Source: Candidatus Poribacteria bacterium
GTDB lineage: Bacteria > Poribacteria > WGA-4E > GCA-2687025
Assembly (NCBI GenBank): GCA_963665845.2
Contig: OY762492.1
Location: 1,568,001-1,632,000 of the forward strand
Direction of reading: 5' to 3'
DNA length: 64,000 nucleotides
The notes under the pieces: generated by a model
Seen by the model: the letters and a program-made list of their open reading frames with translations, nothing else
Told to the model about the DNA's origin: nothing
Databases searched by the model: none
Made by a program: the position numbers and the translations under genes
Shown here: positions 2,053 to 15,463 of the stretch, piece by piece
How the letters are laid out: every line of letters starts with the position of its first letter
Position numbering within the stretch: the stretch's first letter is position 1

Positions 2053-2090
2053 GTCATTCCCGCCCCTGCGGTAAAACGCGCGGGAATCTA
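2053..2090. repeat. variant dRS3-like palindrome
   Basis: GTCATTCCCGC...GCGGGAATC with enlarged loop. Confidence 0.65.
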
Positions 2091-2174
2091 GAGTTTCCCA
2101 GACAGCCTTTGCGTTCCAAAACGGCTCTAAAATGAAAATTATCGTCTATAGAGACCGCCAAAAAACGATTTAAT

Positions 2175-2203
2175 TTGACAACCCCCGCGGCTGCAAGTAT
2201 GCT
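2175..2203 (+). promoter_or_regulatory. sigma70 promoter of ileS operon
   Basis: TTGACA-17 nt-TATGCT. Confidence 0.75.
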
Positions 2204-2232
2204 TTATGTAGGTCGTATCTGAGAGATGGACG

Positions 2233-2325
2233 ATGATGTTTGCAAACCGCGTCAAAACGCTTCGACTTATTGACTGCCCCATTTTGCGGGGCGAAATAGG
2301 CGGCGGGCGGGCAAACAACGGCTAA
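2233..2325 (+). promoter_or_regulatory. putative leader peptide / structured 5' leader of ileS
   Basis: MMFANRVKTLRLIDCPILRGEIGGGRANNG*; GGCGGCGGGCGGGC can pair with the 5' arm of the downstream terminator. Confidence 0.5.
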
Positions 2326-2354
2326 GTTCTCTCAGGAATTTCAAAGCATGGTTG

Positions 2355-2390
2355 AAGCCCATCGCCGCTCACAGCGGGATGGGCTTTTTT
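2355..2390 (+). terminator. intrinsic terminator/attenuator upstream of ileS
   Basis: AAGCCCATC(G)CCGCT-CAC-AGCGGGATGGGCTT followed by T run. Confidence 0.8.
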
Positions 2391-2415
2391 GTTAAATTAG
2401 GCAAGGAGAGCGCCC

Positions 2416-5400
2416 ATGGCTCCGCGCTTCAAAGAGATCGCCCCAGGCTTGAATCGTCCGCAGCGAGAAGAAGCGGTCATCCAATTCTGGCGCGGCAACC
2501 GCATTTTTCAAAAATCGGTCGACAACAGGCGCGCCGATAAACCGTTTGTCTTCCTAGAAGGACCGCCGACCGCAAACGGAAAACCAGGCGTCCATCATAT
2601 CCTCTCCCGCGCCATGAAAGACCTGGTCTGCCGATACAAAACCATGACGGGACACCTTGTCGAACGCAAAGGCGGATGGGACACGCACGGTCTGCCTGTC
2701 GAAATCGAAGTGGAGAAGGCTCTCGGACTGGACGGGAAAAAAGAAATTGAGCAGTACGGCGTCCGGGAGTTCGTTGAAAAATGCCGCGAAAGCGTCTTCG
2801 CCTATGAACAAGACTGGAAAAAAATCACCGAACGCATCGGCTTCTGGATCGACATGGAGAACCCGTACATCACCTGCCGCAACGAGTACATTGAATCGGT
2901 CTGGTGGATTCTCAAGCAGATGTGGACCGAGGGGCTGCTCTACGAAGGGCATAAGGTTGTGCCGTACTGCCCCCGCTGCGGAACGGCGCTCTCAAGCCAT
3001 GAGGTCGCCCAAGGCTACGGCGAAGCGGAAGACCTGTCCGTCTATGTGAAATTTCGCGCCGAAGAGGACCCGAACCATTTCTATCTTGTTTGGACGACCA
3101 CCCCGTGGACGCTGCCGTCCAACGCCGCCTTAGCGGTGAAGCCGGACGCCGACTACGCCCGCGTCCAATGCGGCGCCGAAACATGGACGCTCGCCGCCGA
3201 ACTCGCCCCGAAGGTTCTGGACGGCATGGACGCGCAGATTGTCAAAACCGAAAAGGGAAGCGAACTGATCGGACGGCGTTATGAGCCGTTGTTCCCGTTC
3301 GCCGGCGACTTTGAAAACGCTTATCAGGTGATCGGAGCCGAGTTTGTGACGATGGAGGACGGAACCGGCATCGTCCATATCGCCCCCGCCTTCGGACAGG
3401 ACGACTACGAGACGGGGCAGGCGCATGGGCTGCCGGTCATCCAGCTGGTGGACGAGGCGGGGCGGTTCATCAAAGAGGCGGAGCCGTGGGCGGGCGTTTT
3501 TGTGAAGGACGCCGACCCAGAGATCGCCGCCGACCTGAAAAAACGGGGACAGCTGCTCAAATCGGAGCGGTACACGCATGAGTACCCGTTCTGCTGGCGG
3601 TGCGATTCCCCCCTGCTGTACTACGCCCGCGCCTCATGGTTCATCAAAACGACCGCGTACAAAGACCGCATGGCGGAGCTGAACGACCAGGTGAACTGGC
3701 GCCCCGATCATATCCGCCGCGGACGGTTCGGCGAATGGCTTCGCAACAATGTGGACTGGGCGGTCTCGCGCGAACGTTACTGGGGAACGCCGCTCCCGAT
3801 CTGGAGATGCGGAGAATGCGGCGGCGCGGAATGCTTCGGCAGCGTGGACGAGCTGAAGGAGCGGGCGGCAAACTTCCCAGACGAGCTGGATCTGCACCGC
3901 CCGTATATCGACGAAATAGAGGTTGAATGCGCCGACTGCGGCGGCGGCATGCGGCGCATCCCAGAAGTGGCGGACGCATGGTTCGATTCAGGCAGCGCGC
4001 ATACCGCCCAGTGGCATGCCCCGTTTGAAAACGAACAGAAACAGCGCGCCAATTACCCCGCCGACTTCATCTCCGAAGCCATCGACCAGACCCGCGGCTG
4101 GTTCTACAACCTGCTTGCGACAGCGACGTTTCTCTACGATGAGACGCCGTTTCGCAACTGCCTCTGCCTTGAGCTGGTTCTGGGCGAAGACGGACAGAAG
4201 ATGAGCAAGAGCCGAGGCAACGCGGTCGACCCATGGACGGTTCTCAACAAGCATGGCGCGGACGCGGTGCGCTGGAACTTCTACACCGCCGCGCCGCCAT
4301 GGCAGCCGCGCATCTACAGCGAAGCGGGCGTCGCCGAATCGCTCAACAAGTATCTCGGAACGCTCCAAAACATGTGCGCCTTCTTTGCGATGTATGCGAA
4401 CGCGGAGAATGTGGACCCGACGAAGAACGCGCCGCCCGTTGAGCAGCGTCCAGCGATGGACAGATGGGCGGTCTCCCGCTTTCATTCGACGGCGCGGGAG
4501 GTTTTTAAAGAGATGGAAGATTATCAGATCACGCGCGCCGCGCGCGCTTTGGATCGTTTCGTGGACGATCTTAGCAACTGGTATGTGCGCCGCTCGCGCA
4601 GCCGTTTCTGGGGGTCGGCGGACGAGGCGGACGCGCTCGCGGCGTTTGCGACGCTGCATGAAACCTTAACGGGGGCGGCGCTGTTGACGGCTCCCTTCAC
4701 CCCGTTTGCGGCGGAAGAAATCCATCAAAACCTGGTACGCGCCGTCAACCCTGACGCGCCGGAAAGCGTCCATCTCTGCGCATTCCCCGCGGCTGACGAA
4801 CGACTCATCGATGCCGATCTGGAGAGCGCGATGGAAACGGCGAGGCGCGTCACGCTCATGGGCAGGGCGGCGCGCAGCGACAGCAAAATCCGCACCCGGC
4901 AACCGCTCTCCCGCATCATCCTCGGCGGATTCAGCGAAGCGGAAAGGGAGTCGATGAACGAACTGACATCCATCGCCCTGGAGGAGCTGAACGTCAAGGC
5001 GGTCGAATGGGGCGGCAATCTGAACGACTTTGCGGCGTATGAAGCGAAGCCGAATTTCAAAACGCTCGGACCGAAGCATGGCAAAGCGGTTCAGCTGATC
5101 GCGCGCGCCGTCCAAACCGCGGACGCGGCGCAGCTGAAACGGGACGCGGACAAACATGGACAGGCGCGCCTCCAAACCGAAGCGGGCGAGTTCGTCCTGG
5201 AGCCGGACGATTTCAGCGTCTCCATGCGCAGCCGAGAGGGTTACGCGGTCGTCTCAAACGGCGCCGCGTTTGCCGCGCTCGATTTGACGATGACGCCTGA
5301 ACTGATACTGGAAGGGCGGGCGCGCGAACTGGTCAACCGCATTCAAGCGATGCGCAAAGAGGAGGGCTTCCATGTAGCAGACCGAATCGCGCTCACCTTT

Positions 5401-5568
5401 GAGGGCGACGGCGACGCGAAACGCGCCTTTGAAAACCTGCAGGGCAACATCATGCGCGAAACGCTGGCTGTTCAGATTGACGACCAGCCGAAAGAAGGGG
5501 CGTATGTCAAAGAAGCGGAGATCGACGGCGACAAGGCGAAGCTCTCGGTGCGGAGGGTGGACGCATGA
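2416..5568 (+). CDS. ileS: isoleucine--tRNA ligase, type 2
   Basis: 1050 aa; GPPTANG, GWDTHGLP, WTTTPWT, GTGIVH, DQTRGWF, KMSKS; HIGH motif reads GVHH. Confidence 0.97.
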   Translation: MAPRFKEIAPGLNRPQREEAVIQFWRGNRIFQKSVDNRRADKPFVFLEGPPTANGKPGVHHILSRAMKDLVCRYKTMTGHLVERKGGWDTHGLPVEIEVEKALGLDGKKEIEQYGVREFVEKCRESVFAYEQDWKKITERIGFWIDMENPYITCRNEYIESVWWILKQMWTEGLLYEGHKVVPYCPRCGTALSSHEVAQGYGEAEDLSVYVKFRAEEDPNHFYLVWTTTPWTLPSNAALAVKPDADYARVQCGAETWTLAAELAPKVLDGMDAQIVKTEKGSELIGRRYEPLFPFAGDFENAYQVIGAEFVTMEDGTGIVHIAPAFGQDDYETGQAHGLPVIQLVDEAGRFIKEAEPWAGVFVKDADPEIAADLKKRGQLLKSERYTHEYPFCWRCDSPLLYYARASWFIKTTAYKDRMAELNDQVNWRPDHIRRGRFGEWLRNNVDWAVSRERYWGTPLPIWRCGECGGAECFGSVDELKERAANFPDELDLHRPYIDEIEVECADCGGGMRRIPEVADAWFDSGSAHTAQWHAPFENEQKQRANYPADFISEAIDQTRGWFYNLLATATFLYDETPFRNCLCLELVLGEDGQKMSKSRGNAVDPWTVLNKHGADAVRWNFYTAAPPWQPRIYSEAGVAESLNKYLGTLQNMCAFFAMYANAENVDPTKNAPPVEQRPAMDRWAVSRFHSTAREVFKEMEDYQITRAARALDRFVDDLSNWYVRRSRSRFWGSADEADALAAFATLHETLTGAALLTAPFTPFAAEEIHQNLVRAVNPDAPESVHLCAFPAADERLIDADLESAMETARRVTLMGRAARSDSKIRTRQPLSRIILGGFSEAERESMNELTSIALEELNVKAVEWGGNLNDFAAYEAKPNFKTLGPKHGKAVQLIARAVQTADAAQLKRDADKHGQARLQTEAGEFVLEPDDFSVSMRSREGYAVVSNGAAFAALDLTMTPELILEGRARELVNRIQAMRKEEGFHVADRIALTFEGDGDAKRAFENLQGNIMRETLAVQIDDQPKEGAYVKEAEIDGDKAKLSVRRVDA

Positions 5569-6104
5569 AAAAACGACCGGTTGAAGTGCGAATAGAGCCG
5601 ATAGAAATGAAGCATGCGCCGTTCATACAGCGGTATGCGGCGGAAGCCGACATCGCCGCCACAATGCACCACATACCGGATCCTCTTCCAGAAAACTGGG
5701 GGGAGGAGTTCGTTCGCGATGTGATGCGCCGTCGGGCAGAAGACTCCGCTTTTGTTTACGCCGTGTACAACAATGAAACATTTGTCGGCGCGTGCGGCAT
5801 TGGAGCGTCCGAAGAGCGCGCCTATCTGGCTTATTGGATCGGAAAGCCGTTTTGGGGTCAAGGCTACGGATCTGCGGCGGCGTTTGCCGTCTTGAGTCGC
5901 GTCTTTTCAGAACAGGGTTACCCGCTCGTCGCCGCAGGCAGCTATATCCACAACCCCGCCTCGATACGCATTCTCGAAAAATGCGGCTTTCAATATGAAA
6001 GAACCGAGGAGAGAGAACGAGGCGCAATTAACTGGTACCTTTTGAAACGGGACGATTTCAACCGCATCGTTCAAACAAGGGAGAAAAGCGGCGATGAAAC
6101 ATAA
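5565..6104 (+). CDS. GNAT acetyltransferase, RimJ/RimL family (copy 1 of 7)
   Basis: YWIGKPFWGQGYG and HNPASIRILEKCGF motifs; ATGA overlap with ileS. Confidence 0.92.
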   Translation: MKKRPVEVRIEPIEMKHAPFIQRYAAEADIAATMHHIPDPLPENWGEEFVRDVMRRRAEDSAFVYAVYNNETFVGACGIGASEERAYLAYWIGKPFWGQGYGSAAAFAVLSRVFSEQGYPLVAAGSYIHNPASIRILEKCGFQYERTEERERGAINWYLLKRDDFNRIVQTREKSGDET

Positions 6105-6624
6105 AACGCCCGATGTGCGAATCGAGCCGCTGGAAATGAAACATGCGCCGCTCTTGCAGCGGTATGCGTCCGACGCCGCCATCGCCGCCACAACGCTTGT
6201 GCCGCATCCATTGCCGGAAAACTGGGGAGAAAGATGGGCGCGCGGCGCGATGCGCTATCGGAATGAAGGCTCCTATTTTTGTTATGCCGTGTACAACGGG
6301 GAAACATTTGTCGGCTTGTGCGCCGTTGGGCAGTACCGAGGGAAGCCCGAAATTCATTACTGGATCGGGAAGCCGTTCTGGGGTCAAGGTTACGGAACCG
6401 CGGCGGCGTTTGCCGTCTTGAAGCGGGTCTTTTCAGAACAGGGTTATCCTGCCATCGCCGCCTCCAGCTACACCCACAACCCGGCGTCCATGCGCATTCT
6501 TGAAAAATGCGGATTCCAACCCAACGGAACCGAAGAGGAAGAGCGCGGAACATTGGCGCATTACATTTTGAAACGGGACGACTTCAACCGCATTGAGCAA
6601 GCGAGGGCGGAAGAAAATGGTTAA
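6094..6624 (+). CDS. GNAT acetyltransferase, RimJ/RimL family (copy 2 of 7)
   Basis: same motifs; overlaps copy 1. Confidence 0.92.
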   Translation: MKHKTPDVRIEPLEMKHAPLLQRYASDAAIAATTLVPHPLPENWGERWARGAMRYRNEGSYFCYAVYNGETFVGLCAVGQYRGKPEIHYWIGKPFWGQGYGTAAAFAVLKRVFSEQGYPAIAASSYTHNPASMRILEKCGFQPNGTEEEERGTLAHYILKRDDFNRIEQARAEENG

Positions 6625-7150
6625 AAAGAAAGCGGCGTCGGTGCAGATCGAACCGCTGGAGATGCGCCATGCGCCGTTCTTGCAGCGGTATGCGTCCGAC
6701 GCCGCCATCGCCGCCACGACACCCATCCCGCACCCTTTGCCGGAAAACTGGGGAGAGAACGCGGCGCGCCGCGCGATGTTTGCGCGGGATGAAGGCTCCT
6801 ATTTTTGTTATGCCGTGTACAACGGGGAAACATTTGTCGGTCTATGCTCCGTTGGGCTGCTTCAAGAGCGTCCCGAACTTTATTACTTTATCGGCAAGCC
6901 GTTCTGGGGGCGCGGATACGGATATGCGGCGGCGCTCGCTGTCTTGAAGCGCGTCTTTTCAGAACAGGGGTACCCGATCATCGTCGCGCGCTGCCTGACT
7001 CACAACCCAGCCTCGATGCGCATTCTTGAAAAATGCGGATTCCAACCCAATGGAACCGAAGAGGAAGAGCGCGGAACATTGGCGCATTACATTTTGAAAC
7101 GGGACGACTTCAACCGCATTGAGCAAGCGAGGGCGGGCAAAGATGGTTAA
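6617..7150 (+). CDS. GNAT acetyltransferase, RimJ/RimL family (copy 3 of 7)
   Basis: same motifs; start at MVKKK overlapping stop of copy 2. Confidence 0.92.
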   Translation: MVKKKAASVQIEPLEMRHAPFLQRYASDAAIAATTPIPHPLPENWGENAARRAMFARDEGSYFCYAVYNGETFVGLCSVGLLQERPELYYFIGKPFWGRGYGYAAALAVLKRVFSEQGYPIIVARCLTHNPASMRILEKCGFQPNGTEEEERGTLAHYILKRDDFNRIEQARAGKDG

Positions 7151-7676
7151 AAAGAAAGCGGCGCCGGTGCGGATCGAACCGCTAGAGATGCGCCATGCGC
7201 CGTTCTTGCAGCGGTATGCGTCCGACCCTGACATTGCCGCCATGACAACCGTCCCGCACCCGTACCCTGAAAACGGCGGAGAGGAGTTTGCGCGCATGGA
7301 GATGCGCAAACGCGCGGAAGGCGACCCGTTCACCTACGCCGTCTATGCCGGCGAAAACTTTGTCGGGACATGCGGCGTCGGGTTGGACAAATGCAACGAC
7401 CAAGGGCTGCCCGAACTGGGATACTGGATCGCCAAGCCGTTCTGGGGGCGCGGATACGGATACGCGGCGGCGCTCGCCGTGTTGACGCGCGTCTTTTCAG
7501 AACGCGGCTATCCGATCATCCTCGCGCGGTGCCATGAACACAATCCCGCCTCGATACGCATCCTTGAAAAATGCGGCTTTCAACCCGACGGATCCGAAAC
7601 GGACGAACGAGGCATATGGTTCTGTTATCTTTTGAAACAGAACGATTTCAACCGCATCGTTCCAACGAAGGAGTGA
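7143..7676 (+). CDS. GNAT acetyltransferase, RimJ/RimL family (copy 4 of 7)
   Basis: ELGYWIAKPFWGRGYG, HNPASIRILEKCGF. Confidence 0.92.
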   Translation: MVKKKAAPVRIEPLEMRHAPFLQRYASDPDIAAMTTVPHPYPENGGEEFARMEMRKRAEGDPFTYAVYAGENFVGTCGVGLDKCNDQGLPELGYWIAKPFWGRGYGYAAALAVLTRVFSERGYPIILARCHEHNPASIRILEKCGFQPDGSETDERGIWFCYLLKQNDFNRIVPTKE

Positions 7677-7680
7677 AGCG

Positions 7681-8214
7681 ATGAGTAAAAAGAAAACGCC
7701 CAACGTTCGAATAGAGCCGCTGGAAATGAAACATGCGCCGTTCATACAGCGGTATGCGTCCGACGCCGACGTCGCCGCCATGGCAAATCTTCCGCGCCCG
7801 TACCCCGAAAACGGGGGCGAGGAGTTTGTCCGATACGATCAGGATAGACGCGAAAAAGGCGTCTCGTTCACCTACGCCGCGATGGACGAAGCCTCTTTCG
7901 TCGGCGTCTGCGGAGTCGCGACGAACAAGCCCGGCAGAGAAGGTCAGCCGGAGATTGGCTACTGGATCGGCAAGCCGTTTTGGGGTCAAGGTTACGGAAC
8001 CGCGGCGGCGCGCGCTGTCTTGTCGCGCGTCTTTTCAGAACAGGATTGGCCGTTCGTCGCCGCGCGCAGCCTGACTCACAACCCGGCGTCGATACGCATT
8101 CTCGAAAAATGCGGCTTCCAGTATCAAAAAACGGAAGAAAACGCAGTCGGCGAATTCGCATGCTATCTCCTCAAAAAGGACGATTTTATGCAAAACTCTC
8201 AAAAGGCAGAGTAA
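7681..8214 (+). CDS. GNAT acetyltransferase, RimJ/RimL family (copy 5 of 7)
   Basis: EIGYWIGKPFWGQGYG; AAGGAG RBS. Confidence 0.92.
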   Translation: MSKKKTPNVRIEPLEMKHAPFIQRYASDADVAAMANLPRPYPENGGEEFVRYDQDRREKGVSFTYAAMDEASFVGVCGVATNKPGREGQPEIGYWIGKPFWGQGYGTAAARAVLSRVFSEQDWPFVAARSLTHNPASIRILEKCGFQYQKTEENAVGEFACYLLKKDDFMQNSQKAE

Positions 8215-8215
8215 A

Positions 8216-8749
8216 ATGAGCATAAAGAAAACGCCTGATGTGCAGTTGGAGCCGCTGGAAATGAAACATGCGCCGTTCATACAGCGGTATGCGTCCGACG
8301 CCGATGTCGCCGCCATGGCAAATCTTCCGCGCCCGTACCCCGAAAACGGCGGCGAAGAGTTTATCCGATACGATCAGGACAGACGGGAAAAAGGCGTCTC
8401 GTTCACCTACGCTGTGATGGACGGGGACTCTCTCGTCGGCGTCTGCGGAGTCGCGACGAACAAGCCCGGCAGAGAAGGTCAGCCGGAGATTGGCTACTGG
8501 ATCGGCAAGCCGTTTTGGGGTCAAGGTTACGGAACCGCGGCGGCGCGCGCTGTCTTGTCGCGCGTCTTTTCAGAACAGGATTGGCCGTTCGTCGCCGCGC
8601 GCAGCCTGACTCACAACCCGGCGTCGATGCGCATTCTCGAAAAATGCGGATTTCAACCAAACGGAACCGAACAGGATGAGCGCGGAACGCTGGCGCTCTA
8701 CATTTTGAAACAGGACGATTTCAACCCCGCCCCTCAAACGAAGGAGTGA
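8216..8749 (+). CDS. GNAT acetyltransferase, RimJ/RimL family (copy 6 of 7)
   Basis: core nearly identical to copy 5. Confidence 0.92.
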   Translation: MSIKKTPDVQLEPLEMKHAPFIQRYASDADVAAMANLPRPYPENGGEEFIRYDQDRREKGVSFTYAVMDGDSLVGVCGVATNKPGREGQPEIGYWIGKPFWGQGYGTAAARAVLSRVFSEQDWPFVAARSLTHNPASMRILEKCGFQPNGTEQDERGTLALYILKQDDFNPAPQTKE

Positions 8750-8753
8750 ATCC

Positions 8754-9308
8754 ATGACGAAAAAGAAAACGCCCCATGTTCAAATCGAGCCGCTGGAAAT
8801 GAAGCATGCCCCGTTCATACAGCGGTATGCGTCGGACGCCGCGGTCGCCGCGACGACAACGCTGCCGCACCCGTACCCCGAAAACGGGGGCGTCGAGTTT
8901 GTCAAGTACTGTCAGAGCCGTTGGGAAAAAGGCGTCTCGTTCACCTACGCCGTGATGGACGGGGACGATTTCGTCGGCGCCTGCGGAGTCGAGATCGACA
9001 AACGCGGCAGAGAAGGACAGCCGGAGATCGGGTACTGGATCGGCAAGCCGTTCTGGGGGCGCGGATACGGTTACGCGGCGGCGCGCGCTGTCCTGACGCG
9101 CGTCTTTTCAGAACAGGATTGGCAGTACGTCATCGCGCGCAGCCTGACTCACAACCCGGCATCGATACGCATTCTCGAAAAATGCGGCTTCCAGTCGACC
9201 GGAGAAGAAGAGGAGGACTCGCGGGGAACCACTGCCTTTTTCATTGTGAAAAAAGAGGATTACGAACGAATCGATCAAGCAGAGGAGAAAACCGATGGCG
9301 GAGAATAA
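8754..9308 (+). CDS. GNAT acetyltransferase, RimJ/RimL family (copy 7 of 7)
   Basis: EIGYWIGKPFWGRGYG; overlaps leuA start. Confidence 0.92.
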   Translation: MTKKKTPHVQIEPLEMKHAPFIQRYASDAAVAATTTLPHPYPENGGVEFVKYCQSRWEKGVSFTYAVMDGDDFVGACGVEIDKRGREGQPEIGYWIGKPFWGRGYGYAAARAVLTRVFSEQDWQYVIARSLTHNPASIRILEKCGFQSTGEEEEDSRGTTAFFIVKKEDYERIDQAEEKTDGGE

Positions 9309-10833
9309 AACCCCGGACCCCAACAAAACGCACATCTTCGACACGACGCTGCGCGACGGCGAGCAGGTTCCCGGCGCCAAGCTGAACCTCCATGAGAAGC
9401 TGGAGATCGCGCGCCGTCTGGAGCGGTTGAATGTGGATGTGATTGAGGCTGGTTTTCCGCGCTCTTCGCCGGGCGATTTTGAATCGGTCGCGCGCATCGC
9501 CGAAGAGATACGCGGTCCGGAAATCTGCGGGCTGGCGCGCGCCGTCCCTGAAGACATCGAAGTATGCGCCGAGGCGATCAAGGGCGCCGCGAAGCCGCGC
9601 CTGCATACCTTCATCGGAACCTCCGATGTGAATATCCAATCGCAGCTGCGCAAGACGCGCGATGAAGCGCTCAACATCGCGGTCGACGCGGTCTCTCTGG
9701 CGCGCTCCCTCTGCGAAACGGTCGAGTTCTCTCCGATGGACGCGACGCGGACCGAACCCGCCTATCTGCGCGACGTCGTGACGGCGACCATCGAAGCGGG
9801 CGCCAGCATTATCAACATACCCGACACGGTCGGATACGCCGTCCCGCGGCAGTTCGGCGAACTGATACGTTACCTGTTTGACAACGTCCCGAACATCGGC
9901 GAAGCGCGGTTGAGCGTCCACTGCCATGACGACCTCGGCATGGCGACCATCAACTCGCTCACGGCGGTTCAATGCGGCGCCCGGCAGATCGAATGCACCA
10001 TCAACGGCGTCGGAGAACGCGCCGGCAACGCCTCGCTCGAAGAATGCGTCATGGCGATACGGACGCGGCAGGACTACTTCGGCGAGATTTACACCGACAT
10101 CAACACGAAGGAGATCATGCCGATCAGCCGCGTTGTGCGCAGGTTGATGAACATGCCGGTGCCGCCGAACAAGCCGATTGTCGGCGACAACGCCTTCGCG
10201 CACAGCTCTGGGATTCATCAGGACGGGTATCTGAAAAATCCGGAGACGTTTGAGATCATGAACCCGGCGGATGTCGGCATCAGCGAAAGCAAGCTGATCT
10301 TGACAGCGCGCTCCGGACGCCGCGCGCTGCGCCACCGCCTCGAAGAGCTGGGGTATGAGCTGTCGAAGGAGCAGTTCGCCCGCGTCCATGAGCGTTTTGT
10401 GCGCGTCGCCGATCAGAAAAAAGAGGTGACCGACGCCGACCTGGAAGCGATCGTGAAGGATGAGACGCATTCGGCGCCGCCGACATTCCTCTTCAACTAC
10501 ATGCAGGCGTTGAGCGGAACGAACATTGTCCCGACGACAACGATCAGCGTCAAGCGGGGGGACGAGACGCTGGAAGCCTCCGAAACAGGCAACGGTCCGG
10601 TGGACGCGCTCTACAAAGCGATTGAGCGGGTCACGGGCATCAAGGTGAATCTGGAGAGCTATGCAATCAGCTCCGTCACGGGCGGAAAAGACGCGATGGG
10701 CGAAGTGACGGTGCGCGTTCGGCGAAACGGCGGCAGCTATGTCGGCGTCGGCGCCAGCCCCGATGTGTTGGAAGCGAGCGCGAAGGCGATGCTGGACGCC
10801 GTCAACAAAGCGGCGCATGACGAAGCGGGCTGA
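9295..10833 (+). CDS. leuA: 2-isopropylmalate synthase
   Basis: IFDTTLRDGEQ, HCHDDLG, GVGERAGNA, AFAHSSGIHQDG, C-terminal GNGPVDA regulatory domain. Confidence 0.95.
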   Translation: MAENKTPDPNKTHIFDTTLRDGEQVPGAKLNLHEKLEIARRLERLNVDVIEAGFPRSSPGDFESVARIAEEIRGPEICGLARAVPEDIEVCAEAIKGAAKPRLHTFIGTSDVNIQSQLRKTRDEALNIAVDAVSLARSLCETVEFSPMDATRTEPAYLRDVVTATIEAGASIINIPDTVGYAVPRQFGELIRYLFDNVPNIGEARLSVHCHDDLGMATINSLTAVQCGARQIECTINGVGERAGNASLEECVMAIRTRQDYFGEIYTDINTKEIMPISRVVRRLMNMPVPPNKPIVGDNAFAHSSGIHQDGYLKNPETFEIMNPADVGISESKLILTARSGRRALRHRLEELGYELSKEQFARVHERFVRVADQKKEVTDADLEAIVKDETHSAPPTFLFNYMQALSGTNIVPTTTISVKRGDETLEASETGNGPVDALYKAIERVTGIKVNLESYAISSVTGGKDAMGEVTVRVRRNGGSYVGVGASPDVLEASAKAMLDAVNKAAHDEAG

Positions 10834-11436
10834 ATGCGACCCGTCGCCGACATACAGAAAGAGATACGCGCCTGCAGCCTCTGCTTTCCAGAAGGCGGCA
10901 ACCGTCCGACCGCGGCAGGCTCCGCCTCCGCCCGCGTCATGATCATCGGACAGGCGCCCAGCCGCGCCGATGAACGCACAGGCAGGATGTTTAGCGGACC
11001 CGGCGGAAAACGGCTCCGCTCATGGCTTGAACGCGCCGGCATTGCGGAAGAGGAGATATACTTCTCCGCGCTGACGAGGTGCTACCCCGGCCCCAGCGCG
11101 TCCGGCAAAGGCGACCGCGTCCCAACGCGGCAGGAGATACGCAACTGCCGCCCGCATCTTCATGCGGAGCTGTCGGCGGTTCAGCCGCGCCTCGTTCTCT
11201 TATTGGGCGGAATGGCGGTGAAGGAGTTTTTAGGCGCCGGTCCGTTGACGCAGTTTGTCGGCAAGATTCTATCGGCGGAGTCGGCGCTGCCCTTTTCACA
11301 GCTGCTGCATGACCCGAAAAGCGCCGTTCTCGCGCCGCTGCCCCACTGCTCCGGCGCGAGTCTCTGGCTCAACAAACGAGAAAACGCGGCGCTGCTGGAT
11401 CAAGCGCTCCGCGCCGTCGCCGATGTCCCGCGCTGA
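10834..11436 (+). CDS. uracil-DNA glycosylase superfamily protein (family 4-like, Fe-S cysteines)
   Basis: CSLC, MIIGQAP, FSGPGG, RCYP, NCRPHL, LPHCSG. Confidence 0.85.
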   Translation: MRPVADIQKEIRACSLCFPEGGNRPTAAGSASARVMIIGQAPSRADERTGRMFSGPGGKRLRSWLERAGIAEEEIYFSALTRCYPGPSASGKGDRVPTRQEIRNCRPHLHAELSAVQPRLVLLLGGMAVKEFLGAGPLTQFVGKILSAESALPFSQLLHDPKSAVLAPLPHCSGASLWLNKRENAALLDQALRAVADVPR

Positions 11437-12857: not shown

Positions 12858-13799
12858 ATGGGCAACTTAGAGCAGCTTCCGGAGGCGCTGGACGCTTTCC
12901 TCCGTTATCTGAAAGAGGCGCGCAACTACTCCGACCATTCCATACGCGCCTATCGAACCGACCTGAACGACTTTGCAAAATGCGCGATGGAGAACGGCAA
13001 ACCGCGCATTGAGCAGGTGAACAAGCTGCTCATACGGCGGTATATCGTCAACCTGCAGCGCGAAGGCAAAGCCGCCTCCACCGTTCAACGTCGCGTCTCG
13101 GCGATACGCTCGCTTTACGCCTGGCTCGTGCGAAACGACGCCGCGGCGTCCAACCCCGCCGAACATGTGCGGACGCCCGCCCCGCGCGCCAAGCTGCCCG
13201 AATTCTTAGACGCGGACGAAATCATCGCCCTCCTGAACGCCCCAGACAGCGATACCCCTGCCGGCCTGCGCGACCGCGCCATACTGGAAACGCTGTACTC
13301 AACAGGCATGCGCGTCGGCGAGCTGTGCGCGCTCAACATGGACAGCCTCAAACCGAATAGGACCGTCGCGGCGCGCGGGAAACGCAAAAAAGAACGGATC
13401 GCCCCGCTTGGAAAACCTGCCGTAAAAGCGATTCAAGCGTATCTCCGCCGGCGAAAGGAAATCTGTAAAACGATCAAGGAGCCGGAGGCGCTGTTCATCA
13501 GCCGAGTCGGTCGGCGCATGACCGACCGCGCCGTCCGATACCGCATCAGCGCCTGCCTCAAGAAAGCCGGCATCGATAAAAAGGTCGGACCGCACACGCT
13601 GCGCCACAGCGTCGCAACGCATATGTTGAACGCCGGGGCGGACCTGCGGGTCGTCCAAGAACTGCTGGGGCATTCCTCCCTTGCGACGACGCAGATATAC
13701 ACGCAGGTATCGACCGAGAGGCTGCGCGGCGCCTACATGGACGCCCACCCGCGAAGCCAAGCCCCGCAAAACGAAAACGGCGCTGTAGCCGACTCATGA
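12858..13799 (+). CDS. xerC: tyrosine recombinase XerC-like
   Basis: LRDRAILETLYSTGMRVGEL, GPHTLRHSVATHML, VQELLGHSSLATTQIYT. Confidence 0.85.
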   Translation: MGNLEQLPEALDAFLRYLKEARNYSDHSIRAYRTDLNDFAKCAMENGKPRIEQVNKLLIRRYIVNLQREGKAASTVQRRVSAIRSLYAWLVRNDAAASNPAEHVRTPAPRAKLPEFLDADEIIALLNAPDSDTPAGLRDRAILETLYSTGMRVGELCALNMDSLKPNRTVAARGKRKKERIAPLGKPAVKAIQAYLRRRKEICKTIKEPEALFISRVGRRMTDRAVRYRISACLKKAGIDKKVGPHTLRHSVATHMLNAGADLRVVQELLGHSSLATTQIYTQVSTERLRGAYMDAHPRSQAPQNENGAVADS

Positions 13800-15463
13800 A
13801 AAACAGGCTGAAACGATGGGTTCGACAGCCTGAAAACGCGCTCTTTGCAGGGCTGATTCTCCTGCATCTCATACCGATCTGGGCGTTCACCTATTTTCCG
13901 TCGCAGGACGGACCCGCCCATCTCAACAACGCCAACGTTCTGCGCGAATACAACCATCCCGACCGCTCCGTCTTCCGCGAATATTATGTCATCAACTCAA
14001 ACCCGGAGCCGAATTGGACGGGGCATCTGGCGCTGGCGGGGTTGATGTTTCTCGTCCCGCTGCTGACGGCGGAGAAGCTGCTTTTGAGCGTCTATGTTGT
14101 CCTGCTGCCGTTGTCGGCGCGGTATGCGGTCCGCGCGGTGAACCCTGAAAACGCGGGGCTGGCATCTCTCTCTTTTCCGTTCATCTTCAACTACCTGCTC
14201 CACATGGGCTTTTACAATTTTTCGTACAGCCTCCCGTTCTTCTTTTTTGCGGTCGGTTACTGGGCGAAGAAACAGGAGCGGTTCGGATGGCGCGAGGGGT
14301 TGATCATGGGGCTGTTGTGGCTCGCGCTGTACTTCTCTCACATCTTCACGGTCGTAACGGCATGCGCCGCGCTCGGATTGACGGTCTTGATCTTCACCGC
14401 GCTGGACATCATAAAACGGCTGCGCGGGAAGCCGCTTCATCGGGTCGGCGCGGACGGGTCGCCTGAAGAGACATCGTTCTGGCGGCTTTTCGTCTCGCGG
14501 GCGGTCGTTCCGCTGATTGCGTTCATTCCGACGCTGCTGTTTGCGTTGAATTTTCTCAACCAGAAAGGCACGAACCGAAGCGCTCGGCTTCCGTTCGAGT
14601 CGCAGTGGCGCCGCCTGCGCACTTTAGAGTCGCTTGTATCGTTCGACGCGCTGGAGGTTTGGCTTGCGATTTCGGTTGCCGCGCTGTTTGCGGCGCTGAC
14701 CGCCTTTTTGCTTTTGGTTAAAATCGTCCGCCGGGAATGGAACCGATGGGACGCGCTGCTGGTCGTGTCGGCGGCGTATGTGTACATCTATTTCATCGCG
14801 CCGGACGGCATGTCGGGCGGCGGATTCATCAGCCACCGCATGATCCTGTTTCCATACATCGCGCTGCTGCTGTGGGCGGCGGGGCAGCGCTGGCCGGTAT
14901 GGTCAAAGCGGGTTGCGCAGGGGGCCGCGGCGGCGCTCGCCATCGCGTTCGTCTGCCTGCATATGCGCAGCTACGCGCAGCTGAACGAGTATCTGGAAGA
15001 GTACATCTCGGCGGGCGACCATGTGGAGACGAACACAACGCTTTTGCCGCTCTGCTTTAGCCACCAAGGGCGCGACGACGAGGATCGGATCATGGCGCGG
15101 CGCATCGGACCTTTTCTGCATGCGTCCGGCATCATCGCGGCAAAAAGGCGGATTGTCGAGATGGACAATTACGAAGGCAACACCACCTATTTTCCCGTTC
15201 TGTTTAGACCCGAAAAAAATCCGTTCCGTCATATCGGCTCCATTGAAGCGCAGCCGCCGCAGGTCGACTTTCTTTCTTTTAATGAAAAAACGGGCGGAAC
15301 GGTCGACTATGTCTTGCTGTGGCAGCTTCGAGACCTGTATCATGAACACGCGCAGAACATCTTGCAGCAGCTGGACGAGGGCGGCTATGAACGCATCTTC
15401 GTCTCCGAGCCGAGAGGCGCCGCCCAACTTTACCGCCGACCCGGCATGAAAACAGGCGAATGA
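13796..15463 (+). CDS. polytopic membrane protein, probable GT-C fold
   Basis: PSQDGPAH after first TM, about 11 TM segments, soluble C-terminal domain. Confidence 0.7.
   Translation: MKNRLKRWVRQPENALFAGLILLHLIPIWAFTYFPSQDGPAHLNNANVLREYNHPDRSVFREYYVINSNPEPNWTGHLALAGLMFLVPLLTAEKLLLSVYVVLLPLSARYAVRAVNPENAGLASLSFPFIFNYLLHMGFYNFSYSLPFFFFAVGYWAKKQERFGWREGLIMGLLWLALYFSHIFTVVTACAALGLTVLIFTALDIIKRLRGKPLHRVGADGSPEETSFWRLFVSRAVVPLIAFIPTLLFALNFLNQKGTNRSARLPFESQWRRLRTLESLVSFDALEVWLAISVAALFAALTAFLLLVKIVRREWNRWDALLVVSAAYVYIYFIAPDGMSGGGFISHRMILFPYIALLLWAAGQRWPVWSKRVAQGAAAALAIAFVCLHMRSYAQLNEYLEEYISAGDHVETNTTLLPLCFSHQGRDDEDRIMARRIGPFLHASGIIAAKRRIVEMDNYEGNTTYFPVLFRPEKNPFRHIGSIEAQPPQVDFLSFNEKTGGTVDYVLLWQLRDLYHEHAQNILQQLDEGGYERIFVSEPRGAAQLYRRPGMKTGE

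What the first reader, a model, noticed from the sequence alone, without database searches (positions are those of the whole stretch)
2175..10833. Candidate undescribed system: leader-controlled GVHH-IleRS2 + seven diversified RimL-like acetyltransferases + leuA
Seen: one promoter and terminator-bearing leader, then ileS, seven intact ~177 aa GNAT paralogues and leuA, all overlapping or within 4 nt of each other. The acetyl-CoA motifs (KPFWG[QR]GYG, HNPAS[IM]RILEKCGF) are essentially invariant, while variation concentrates in the N-terminal helices/loop and central strands (e.g. TMHHI/TTLV/TTPI/MTTV/MANL; YLAYW/EIHYW/ELYYF/EIGYW; AAGSY/VARCL/LARCH). Established: these regions shape the GNAT acceptor pocket; RimL/MccE-type GNATs inactivate aminoacyl-adenylate-mimic antibiotics (processed microcin C, albomycin) by N-acetylation; GXHH IleRS2 is mupirocin hyper-resistant. 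Inference: a diversifying repertoire of detoxifying acetylases co-expressed with a resistant synthetase, possibly induced by poor tRNA charging. Alternatives: acetylation of amino-acid analogues, aminoacyl-tRNA or ribosomal proteins.
Basis: partly seen in the sequence, partly recalled or inferred. Interest (0 to 1): 0.9.

Follow-up and report, generated by a model that had tools for sequence, protein, structure and literature searches.

The report
Diversifying acetyltransferase array beside tRNA synthetase
Seven fast-diverging acetyltransferase genes sit in a row between the isoleucine-tRNA synthetase and a leucine-biosynthesis gene of a Poribacteria bacterium, and likely form an expandable kit that inactivates amine-bearing poisons of protein synthesis.

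Summary
The anatomy is confirmed: leader, ileS, seven intact RimJ/RimL-type GNATs (55-84% identical), leuA. The organism is Ca. Poribacteria. The ileS-leuA operon, the GVHH motif and the leader (a predicted Ile/Leu ribosome-stalling attenuator) are older, class-wide traits. The GNATs were inserted in this genus only, and the other genome of the genus has three copies. They evolve 3-4 times faster than neighbours, are recombinant mosaics, and vary most at predicted acceptor-pocket positions; the positive-selection signal is modest (p 0.01-0.05). In another Poribacteria family a related but separately derived GNAT sits after lysS in 1-4 copies, and its extra copy shows similar pocket variation. 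The synthetase link is not seen outside Poribacteria, and this genome has about 114 tandem paralogue clusters. Best reading: a diversifying repertoire of detoxifying N-acetylases, induced when Ile/Leu-tRNA runs short. The substrate is inferred, not shown.

The parts
2175..2203 (+). sigma-70-like promoter (TTGACA-17-TATGCT)
   Evidence: same hexamers upstream of ileS in G001
2233..2325 (+). 30-codon leader peptide ORF with 3 Ile and 3 Leu codons between codons 10 and 22 (predicted attenuator control codons)
   Evidence: equivalent ORF ends 23-31 nt before the terminator in most relatives
2299..2312 (+). predicted antiterminator strand, pairs with the 5' arm of the terminator
   Evidence: forms in MFE folds when a ribosome sits at codons 12-18, largely lost at codon 22 and lost at the stop
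2355..2390 (+). intrinsic terminator hairpin with U-tract (attenuator)
   Evidence: matching hairpin in 29 of 29 ileS loci with upstream DNA
2416..5568 (+). ileS, type-2 isoleucyl-tRNA synthetase with GVHH and KMSKS motifs; only ileS of the genome
5565..6104 (+). GNAT g1 (class I, short beta3-beta4 loop)
6094..6624 (+). GNAT g2 (class I)
6617..7150 (+). GNAT g3 (class I; 85-nt tract identical to g2)
7143..7676 (+). GNAT g4 (class II)
7681..8214 (+). GNAT g5 (class III; AlphaFold model pLDDT 93.5)
8216..8749 (+). GNAT g6 (class III; 196-nt tract identical to g5)
8754..9308 (+). GNAT g7 (class III; overlaps leuA start)
9295..10833 (+). leuA, 2-isopropylmalate synthase; ancestral operon partner of ileS
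10834..11436 (+). uracil-DNA glycosylase family gene abutting leuA; likely continuation of the operon

Best explanation
A RimJ/RimL-type acetyltransferase gene was inserted between ileS and leuA in this genus and amplified into a recombining tandem array whose copies vary most at predicted substrate-pocket positions, and the copies likely use acetyl-CoA to N-acetylate and inactivate different amine-bearing inhibitors of aminoacyl-tRNA synthetases (antibiotic warheads or amino-acid analogues). Shown: genus-specific placement, copy-number variation, mosaic structure, elevated dN, conserved CoA-site motifs. Predicted: a ribosome stalled at the leader's Ile/Leu codons opens the antiterminator, so anything that drains Ile- or Leu-tRNA would raise ileS, the acetylases and leuA together. 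Inferred: acetyl-CoA as donor, the pocket assignment, and above all the substrate class. No substrate was tested.
For: Insertion: ileS and leuA are about 160-200 nt apart in 3 same-family genomes; G001 has 3 GNATs there; G000 has 7. Among 151 phylum genomes only G000 and G001 have this clade. Rate: dN of positional orthologues is 0.14-0.21, vs 0.053 for the lone paralogue elsewhere, 0.048 ileS and 0.023 leuA; dN/dS is 0.29-0.63, so the copies are under purifying selection overall. Mosaic: PHI-type test p=0.001. Selection: M8 vs M8a p=0.008 on one tree, 0.012 and 0.027 with partition trees. Pocket: mean omega at 20 pocket-facing positions is 2.25x the rest (p=2e-5), against 0.83x in a conserved lysS-linked orthologue set; entropy is 1.43 vs 0.67 bits in 18 further database proteins not used to choose the sites. 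MccE Y510 and S553 equivalents are invariant, and F466 and K545 equivalents vary. Parallel case: a related GNAT lies directly after lysS in 16 of 17 family-f8 loci and 0 of 13 other loci, in up to 4 copies. It is not the same clade (AU p=9e-8). Its extra copy has pocket/rest 2.32 and top selected sites aligning to positions 56 and 80, matching 56 and 81 here. Top fold matches include small-molecule and antibiotic acetylases (PA3944 Z 21.2, AAC(6')-Ib 20.4, bleomycin acetylase 20.2). GNATs acetylating the alpha-amine of synthetase-inhibitor warheads are a known defence (tiarin preprint 10.64898/2025.12.02.691738, sections 6 and 11 and passages; PMC3817062, passages).
Against: No activity data. 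The genome has about 114 tandem paralogue clusters, 12 with 5 or more copies, so amplification itself is unremarkable here. The ileS-leuA gap holds unrelated genes in other lineages (a protein I read as DAHP synthase in G009, a methyltransferase-like ORF in G003), so it may simply tolerate insertions. Outside Poribacteria the subfamily shows no synthetase link: 0 of 59 loci had an ileS or lysS hit, and 1 of 70 scanned neighbours was a synthetase, about chance level. The lysS promoter region shows no attenuator. M1a vs M2a is not significant (p=0.058), M7 vs M8 falls to p=0.051 with four partitions, and recombination inflates such tests. One mostly single-copy lysS-linked clade also shows some pocket variation (1.49x, p=0.03). 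Pocket positions come from strand alternation and a 14-16% identity alignment, not from coordinates, and were partly chosen after seeing the window's data. Fold matches are nearly tied across many GNAT functions.
Confidence: 0.45

Rival explanations
1. General detoxification that hitchhikes on a housekeeping operon: the copies acetylate varied environmental or host amines unrelated to tRNA synthetases, and the position after ileS only supplies expression.
For: Pocket diversification and antibiotic-acetylase folds fit equally well. The gap accepts unrelated genes. Neighbours outside Poribacteria are miscellaneous. A plasmid homologue lies in GNAT-MFS-GNAT transposon cargo.
Against: Two separately derived insertions directly after a synthetase gene, each amplified in tandem, are unlikely if placement were random, although this was noticed after the fact.
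Confidence: 0.22
2. Metabolic housekeeping: the enzymes acetylate off-pathway branched-chain amino acids (for example norvaline or norleucine, which LeuA promiscuity can yield; recalled) to keep them off IleRS and LeuRS.
For: Position between ileS and leuA under an Ile/Leu-sensing leader. The genome has a second LeuA-family enzyme.
Against: A fixed endogenous substrate would not need 25 distinct pocket signatures among 28 array-type proteins. Relatives with the same ileS-leuA operon lack the GNATs.
Confidence: 0.1
3. The enzymes acetylate proteins or charged tRNA (ribosomal-protein N-termini, IleRS/LeuA regulation, or ItaT-like Ile-tRNA acetylation).
For: RimJ and RimL share the fold (Z 18.8). 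Distant homologues often lie between rpmA and obgE.
Against: Conserved cellular targets predict conserved pockets, the opposite. No antitoxin ORF fits between the abutting genes.
Confidence: 0.1
4. Near-neutral accordion: unequal crossing-over in a duplication-prone genome multiplies one enzyme, and redundancy relaxes its pocket without new functions.
For: About 114 tandem clusters, identical conversion tracts, only borderline omega>1.
Against: All 7 window copies and all 3 G001 copies are intact, with dN/dS of 0.3-0.6. Three classes are retained across genomes. CoA-site and core positions stay conserved while pocket positions change.
Confidence: 0.13

Closest known systems
MccE / RimL aminoacyl-nucleotide N-acetyltransferases
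   Same: PF13302 fold (Z 18.2-18.8); Y510/Y98 and S553/S141 equivalents invariant; proposed alpha-amine detoxification
   Different: 14-16% identity and a separate branch; W453 replaced by D/H/R; no residue aligned to E572; tandem diversified array rather than one broad enzyme; no microcin genes nearby
TfxH and tiarin-cluster GNATs (bioRxiv 10.64898/2025.12.02.691738)
   Same: GNAT near a synthetase gene; acetylates the warhead of a synthetase inhibitor
   Different: Those are producer immunity genes in biosynthetic clusters, with a duplicate synthetase. Here there is one ileS, no cluster genes in the neighbourhood and no YcaO found in the 90%-complete genome. Sequence relationship to TfxH not tested.
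PA3944, AAC(6')-Ib, bleomycin acetyltransferase
   Same: Best structural matches (Z 20-21, rmsd 2.2, 156-165 aligned)
   Different: About 17% identity; substrates cannot be transferred from fold
GXHH-type IleRS2 (PMC10485003)
   Same: GVHH motif on a type-2 IleRS, expected to be highly mupirocin-resistant
   Different: Class-wide housekeeping enzyme, not an accessory resistance copy
Classical leader-peptide attenuators of synthetase genes (pheST; Streptomyces leuS/trpS, PMC1262725)
   Same: Leader ORF with cognate codons, antiterminator, terminator
   Different: Controls ileS(-leuA) in Poribacteria; no Rfam family matches; not found in one literature search

Membership tests
RimJ/RimL-type GNAT (PF13302) | Pfam score over cut-off and GNAT fold with CoA-binding motifs | tested here: met
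RimL/MccE aminoacyl-nucleotide acetylases | Y510 and general-acid S553 equivalents | tested here: met
   invariant in 7 of 7 (residue roles from PMC4964394 passages)
RimL/MccE aminoacyl-nucleotide acetylases | adenine-stacking residue 453 (Trp in the fetched MccE and RimL) | tested here: not met
   aligns to D/H/R; low-identity alignment
RimL/MccE aminoacyl-nucleotide acetylases | adenine-stacking F466 and general base E572 | tested here: inconclusive
   F in 5 of 7 (W, A in the others); E572 falls in a 6-residue gap, and a nearby invariant E152 may or may not substitute
RimL/MccE aminoacyl-nucleotide acetylases | orthology to RimL/MccE | tested here: not met
   14-16% identity; separate long branch (quick tree)
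RimL/MccE aminoacyl-nucleotide acetylases | acetylation of aminoacyl-adenylate mimics | not testable with these tools
   needs assay
GXHH IleRS2 | GXHH in place of HXGH on a type-2 IleRS | tested here: met
MupA/MupB accessory resistance IleRS | score over cut-off; second ileS copy | tested here: not met
   979 and 914 bits vs 1900; single ileS
Classical transcription attenuator | leader ORF with cognate codons, alternative antiterminator and terminator, conserved | tested here: met
   (computational)
Classical transcription attenuator | read-through depends on Ile/Leu-tRNA charging | not testable with these tools
   needs reporter or transcript data
T-box riboswitch | Rfam T-box match | tested here: not met
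   no Rfam hit at gathering score in the window
Producer self-immunity cassette (microcin C, tiarin) | adjacent biosynthetic cluster and duplicated target synthetase | tested here: not met
   (genome 90% complete)
GNAT toxin-antitoxin (AtaT/ItaT/TacT) | adjacent antitoxin gene | tested here: not met
   genes abut, no room for an antitoxin ORF
IleRS with fused GNAT (NF040702) | score over cut-off, single polypeptide | tested here: not met
   328 vs 1999 bits; no synthetase fusion among 40 longer hits, a weak negative

The most novel reading that the evidence does not exclude
Poribacteria have twice, independently, attached an expandable, recombining acetylase cassette to a housekeeping tRNA-synthetase gene (ileS here, lysS in another family). 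It is a victim-side immunity accordion against Trojan-horse synthetase inhibitors, and here the amino-acid attenuator doubles as the poisoning sensor.
Probability: 0.25. Interest if true: 0.75.

Novelty: new variant of a known kind. Interest (0 to 1): 0.5.

Why it matters
Acetylase defence against synthetase inhibitors is known from producers (MccE, TfxH) and from single broad enzymes (RimL). A diversifying array in a non-producer, wired to tRNA-charging status, would point to an ongoing chemical arms race over tRNA synthetases in the communities where Poribacteria live. The 25 natural pocket variants of one scaffold would also be a ready panel for finding the unknown inhibitors and for studying how GNAT specificity evolves. 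If the hitchhiking or neutral readings hold, it is one more tandem array in a duplication-rich genome.

Tried and rejected
Assembly artefact: rejected on junction contigs. T-box or Rfam RNA in the leader: none. GVHH as a sign of a dedicated resistance module: rejected, class-wide. Fusion of this GNAT to a synthetase: none among 40 longer hits (weak). General synthetase linkage of the subfamily: not found outside Poribacteria (72 of 169 and 70 of 83 neighbours scanned). The metagenome scan returned only distant relatives, 28-43% identical, 1-2 copies. An attenuator before lysS: none seen. Producer cluster: no YcaO found. Expression: no RNA holder listed, which is no evidence either way. The pairing probabilities printed used the wrong register and are ignored; only the folded structures are used. 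The protein atlas gave generic GNAT clusters. AtaT/ItaT-type structures were not among the listed fold matches, which does not exclude them. Two earlier-finding look-ups were empty. Literature searches found no description of this array or attenuator; the library is incomplete. The primary MccE and RimL papers were not held. The tiarin preprint's supplementary list of GNATs was not seen and bears on kinship to TfxH.
Full report
Observation. The window holds ileS (2416-5568), seven intact GNAT genes (5565-9308) and leuA (9295-10833), joined by overlaps of 4-14 nt or gaps of 1-4 nt. They and an eighth paralogue elsewhere make up 8 of the 9 PF13302 matches and 8 of the 12 PF00583 matches in the genome. 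Public contigs cross five junction regions at single-copy depth (one study, possibly the source), so the array is unlikely to be an assembly artefact. Sources label near-identical proteins as Ca. Poribacteria.

What is old. ileS is single-copy. GVHH occurs in 28 of 28 loci where the motif could be read; 2 of 30 gave no motif. Passages of PMC10485003 show that GXHH gives mupirocin hyper-resistance and arose in whole IleRS2 subclades. Of 10 relatives' regions, 7 have leuA downstream of ileS. Three same-family genomes have only about 160-200 nt between them, G001 has three GNATs, and G003 and G009 hold unrelated ORFs. The leader is a predicted classical attenuator: a matching terminator occurs in 29 of 29 loci with upstream DNA, usually preceded by an Ile-rich ORF. 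The 8 loci from the lineages where leuA follows ileS carry 3-5 Leu codons in that stretch, while family f8 leaders are mostly Ile runs (frame chosen by Ile count, kin not independent). In the window, the antiterminator forms when a ribosome sits at codons 12-18 and is lost by the stop codon. Rfam has no match. So the leader, the resistant motif and the leuA link all predate the GNATs.

What is new. Among 151 phylum genomes only G000 and G001 have this clade (E below 1e-80; next best 2e-36). The tree shows three classes shared by both genomes, expanded 3+1+3 in G000. Positional orthologues have dN 0.14-0.21, against 0.053 for the lone paralogue, 0.048 for ileS and 0.023 for leuA; dN/dS is 0.29-0.63. 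Identical tracts of 196 and 85 nt and a PHI-type test (p=0.001) show recombination. Site models on 10 genes give M8 vs M8a p=0.008, M7 vs M8 p=0.007 and M1a vs M2a p=0.058. With separate trees per segment, M8 vs M8a gives p=0.012 and 0.027, and M7 vs M8 gives 0.012 and 0.051. This is modest evidence, carried mainly by position 56 (g5 numbering).

Where the variation lies. The g5 model is confident (pLDDT 93.5). Its best matches are PA3944, AAC(6')-Ib and bleomycin acetylase (Z 20-21), with RimL 18.8 and MccE 18.2. Aligned to MccE, Y510 and S553 are invariant, F466 and K545 positions vary, W453 is not kept and E572 falls in a gap (the review PMC4964394, passages, writes T453, the fetched sequence has Trp). 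Twenty positions assigned to the acceptor side have mean omega 2.25x the rest (p=2e-5). The same set is more variable in 18 database proteins not used to choose it (1.43 vs 0.67 bits; related, so not fully independent). No coordinates were available, and the set was partly chosen after seeing the window's data.

A parallel case. In family f8, related GNATs follow lysS directly, before a lolC/macB-like gene: 16 of 17 f8 loci and 0 of 13 others. In G000 lysS abuts that gene. Of 21 Poribacteria loci from a GTDB scan, 20 carry lysS, with up to four GNAT copies. Monophyly of the ileS- and lysS-linked sets is rejected (AU p=9e-8; 46 of 68 rows, long branches and some near-duplicates left out). The extra lysS-linked copy shows M8 vs M8a p=0.007 with top sites at 56 and 80 and pocket/rest 2.32. 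The two other clades show no omega>1 and ratios of 0.83 and 1.49.

Against a special system. The genome has about 114 tandem paralogue clusters, 36 with at least 3 and 12 with at least 5 copies, from crude ORF calls. The large ones that I inspected are mostly WD40, secreted, periplasmic or unknown proteins, so a seven-copy array of a small cytoplasmic enzyme is still unusual among them. Outside Poribacteria, 0 of 59 loci had ileS or lysS and 1 of 70 scanned neighbours was a synthetase. Distant homologues often sit between rpmA and obgE. lysS shows no attenuator. RimL and MccE are described as broad toward the aminoacyl group (PMC3817062, passages), so adenylate mimics alone would not require seven pockets. 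Chemically varied warheads such as tiarins might (preprint 10.64898/2025.12.02.691738: abstract, passages, sections 6 and 11; supplements not seen). There is no sign that this organism is a producer.

Verdict. This is a real, genus-specific, recombining and pocket-diversifying acetylase array under an older Ile/Leu attenuator, with an independent analogue at lysS. The most likely role is detoxifying N-acetylation of synthetase-directed amines (0.45). Rivals are general detoxification by hitchhiking (0.22), near-neutral amplification (0.13), metabolite housekeeping (0.10) and protein or tRNA acetylation (0.10). It may work like MccE/TfxH but is not a member of the RimL/MccE group. I found no description in the library searches listed under Tried and rejected. 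Interest 0.5.

Noticed in passing
window 2233-2390 and L001-L030 upstream of ileS: Class-wide predicted leader-peptide attenuator of ileS in Poribacteria, absent from Rfam; Leu codons are added in lineages where leuA follows ileS.
   Followed up: yes
L145-L161, L188-L204, L238-L304 (family f8, after lysS): Separately derived GNAT inserted between lysS and a lolC/macB-like gene in 1-4 copies; the extra copy diversifies at similar positions.
   Followed up: yes
L291:2467-4588: Four-copy lysS array in which a duplicated unit includes the last 34 codons of lysS and one truncated GNAT: a trace of tandem amplification.
   Followed up: partly
G000 whole genome: About 114 tandem paralogue clusters, e.g. 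9 copies at C1:1881487-1902669 and 7 at C1:3890446-3912714; several arrays have no Pfam match (C1:367266, 707713, 1134672, 3820884).
   Followed up: partly
L061:7901-8416 (G000:C1:2797901) and L062:5879-6400: Eighth, slowly evolving paralogue of the array, after an outer-membrane beta-barrel gene and convergent with an acetyl-CoA synthetase-like gene; possible parent copy.
   Followed up: partly
L037:10275-11351; L035:12515-13279: Other genes occupy the ileS-leuA gap in relatives: an ORF read by eye as DAHP synthase, and a methyltransferase-like ORF.
   Followed up: no
window 2053-2092 and about 590-617: Short palindromic repeat with very high contig depth and many loose ends; looks like a dispersed REP-type element.
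   Followed up: no
window 13796-15463: 555-aa multi-pass membrane protein with no Pfam match, between a XerC-type recombinase and an FGE-sulfatase gene.
   Followed up: no
L308:2936-5477: Distant homologue in GNAT-MFS-GNAT cargo between a Tn3 transposase/resolvase and IS903 on a Klebsiella plasmid.
   Followed up: no
G000:C1:1273360-1273782: Second LeuA-family regulatory domain, possibly citramalate synthase.
   Followed up: no
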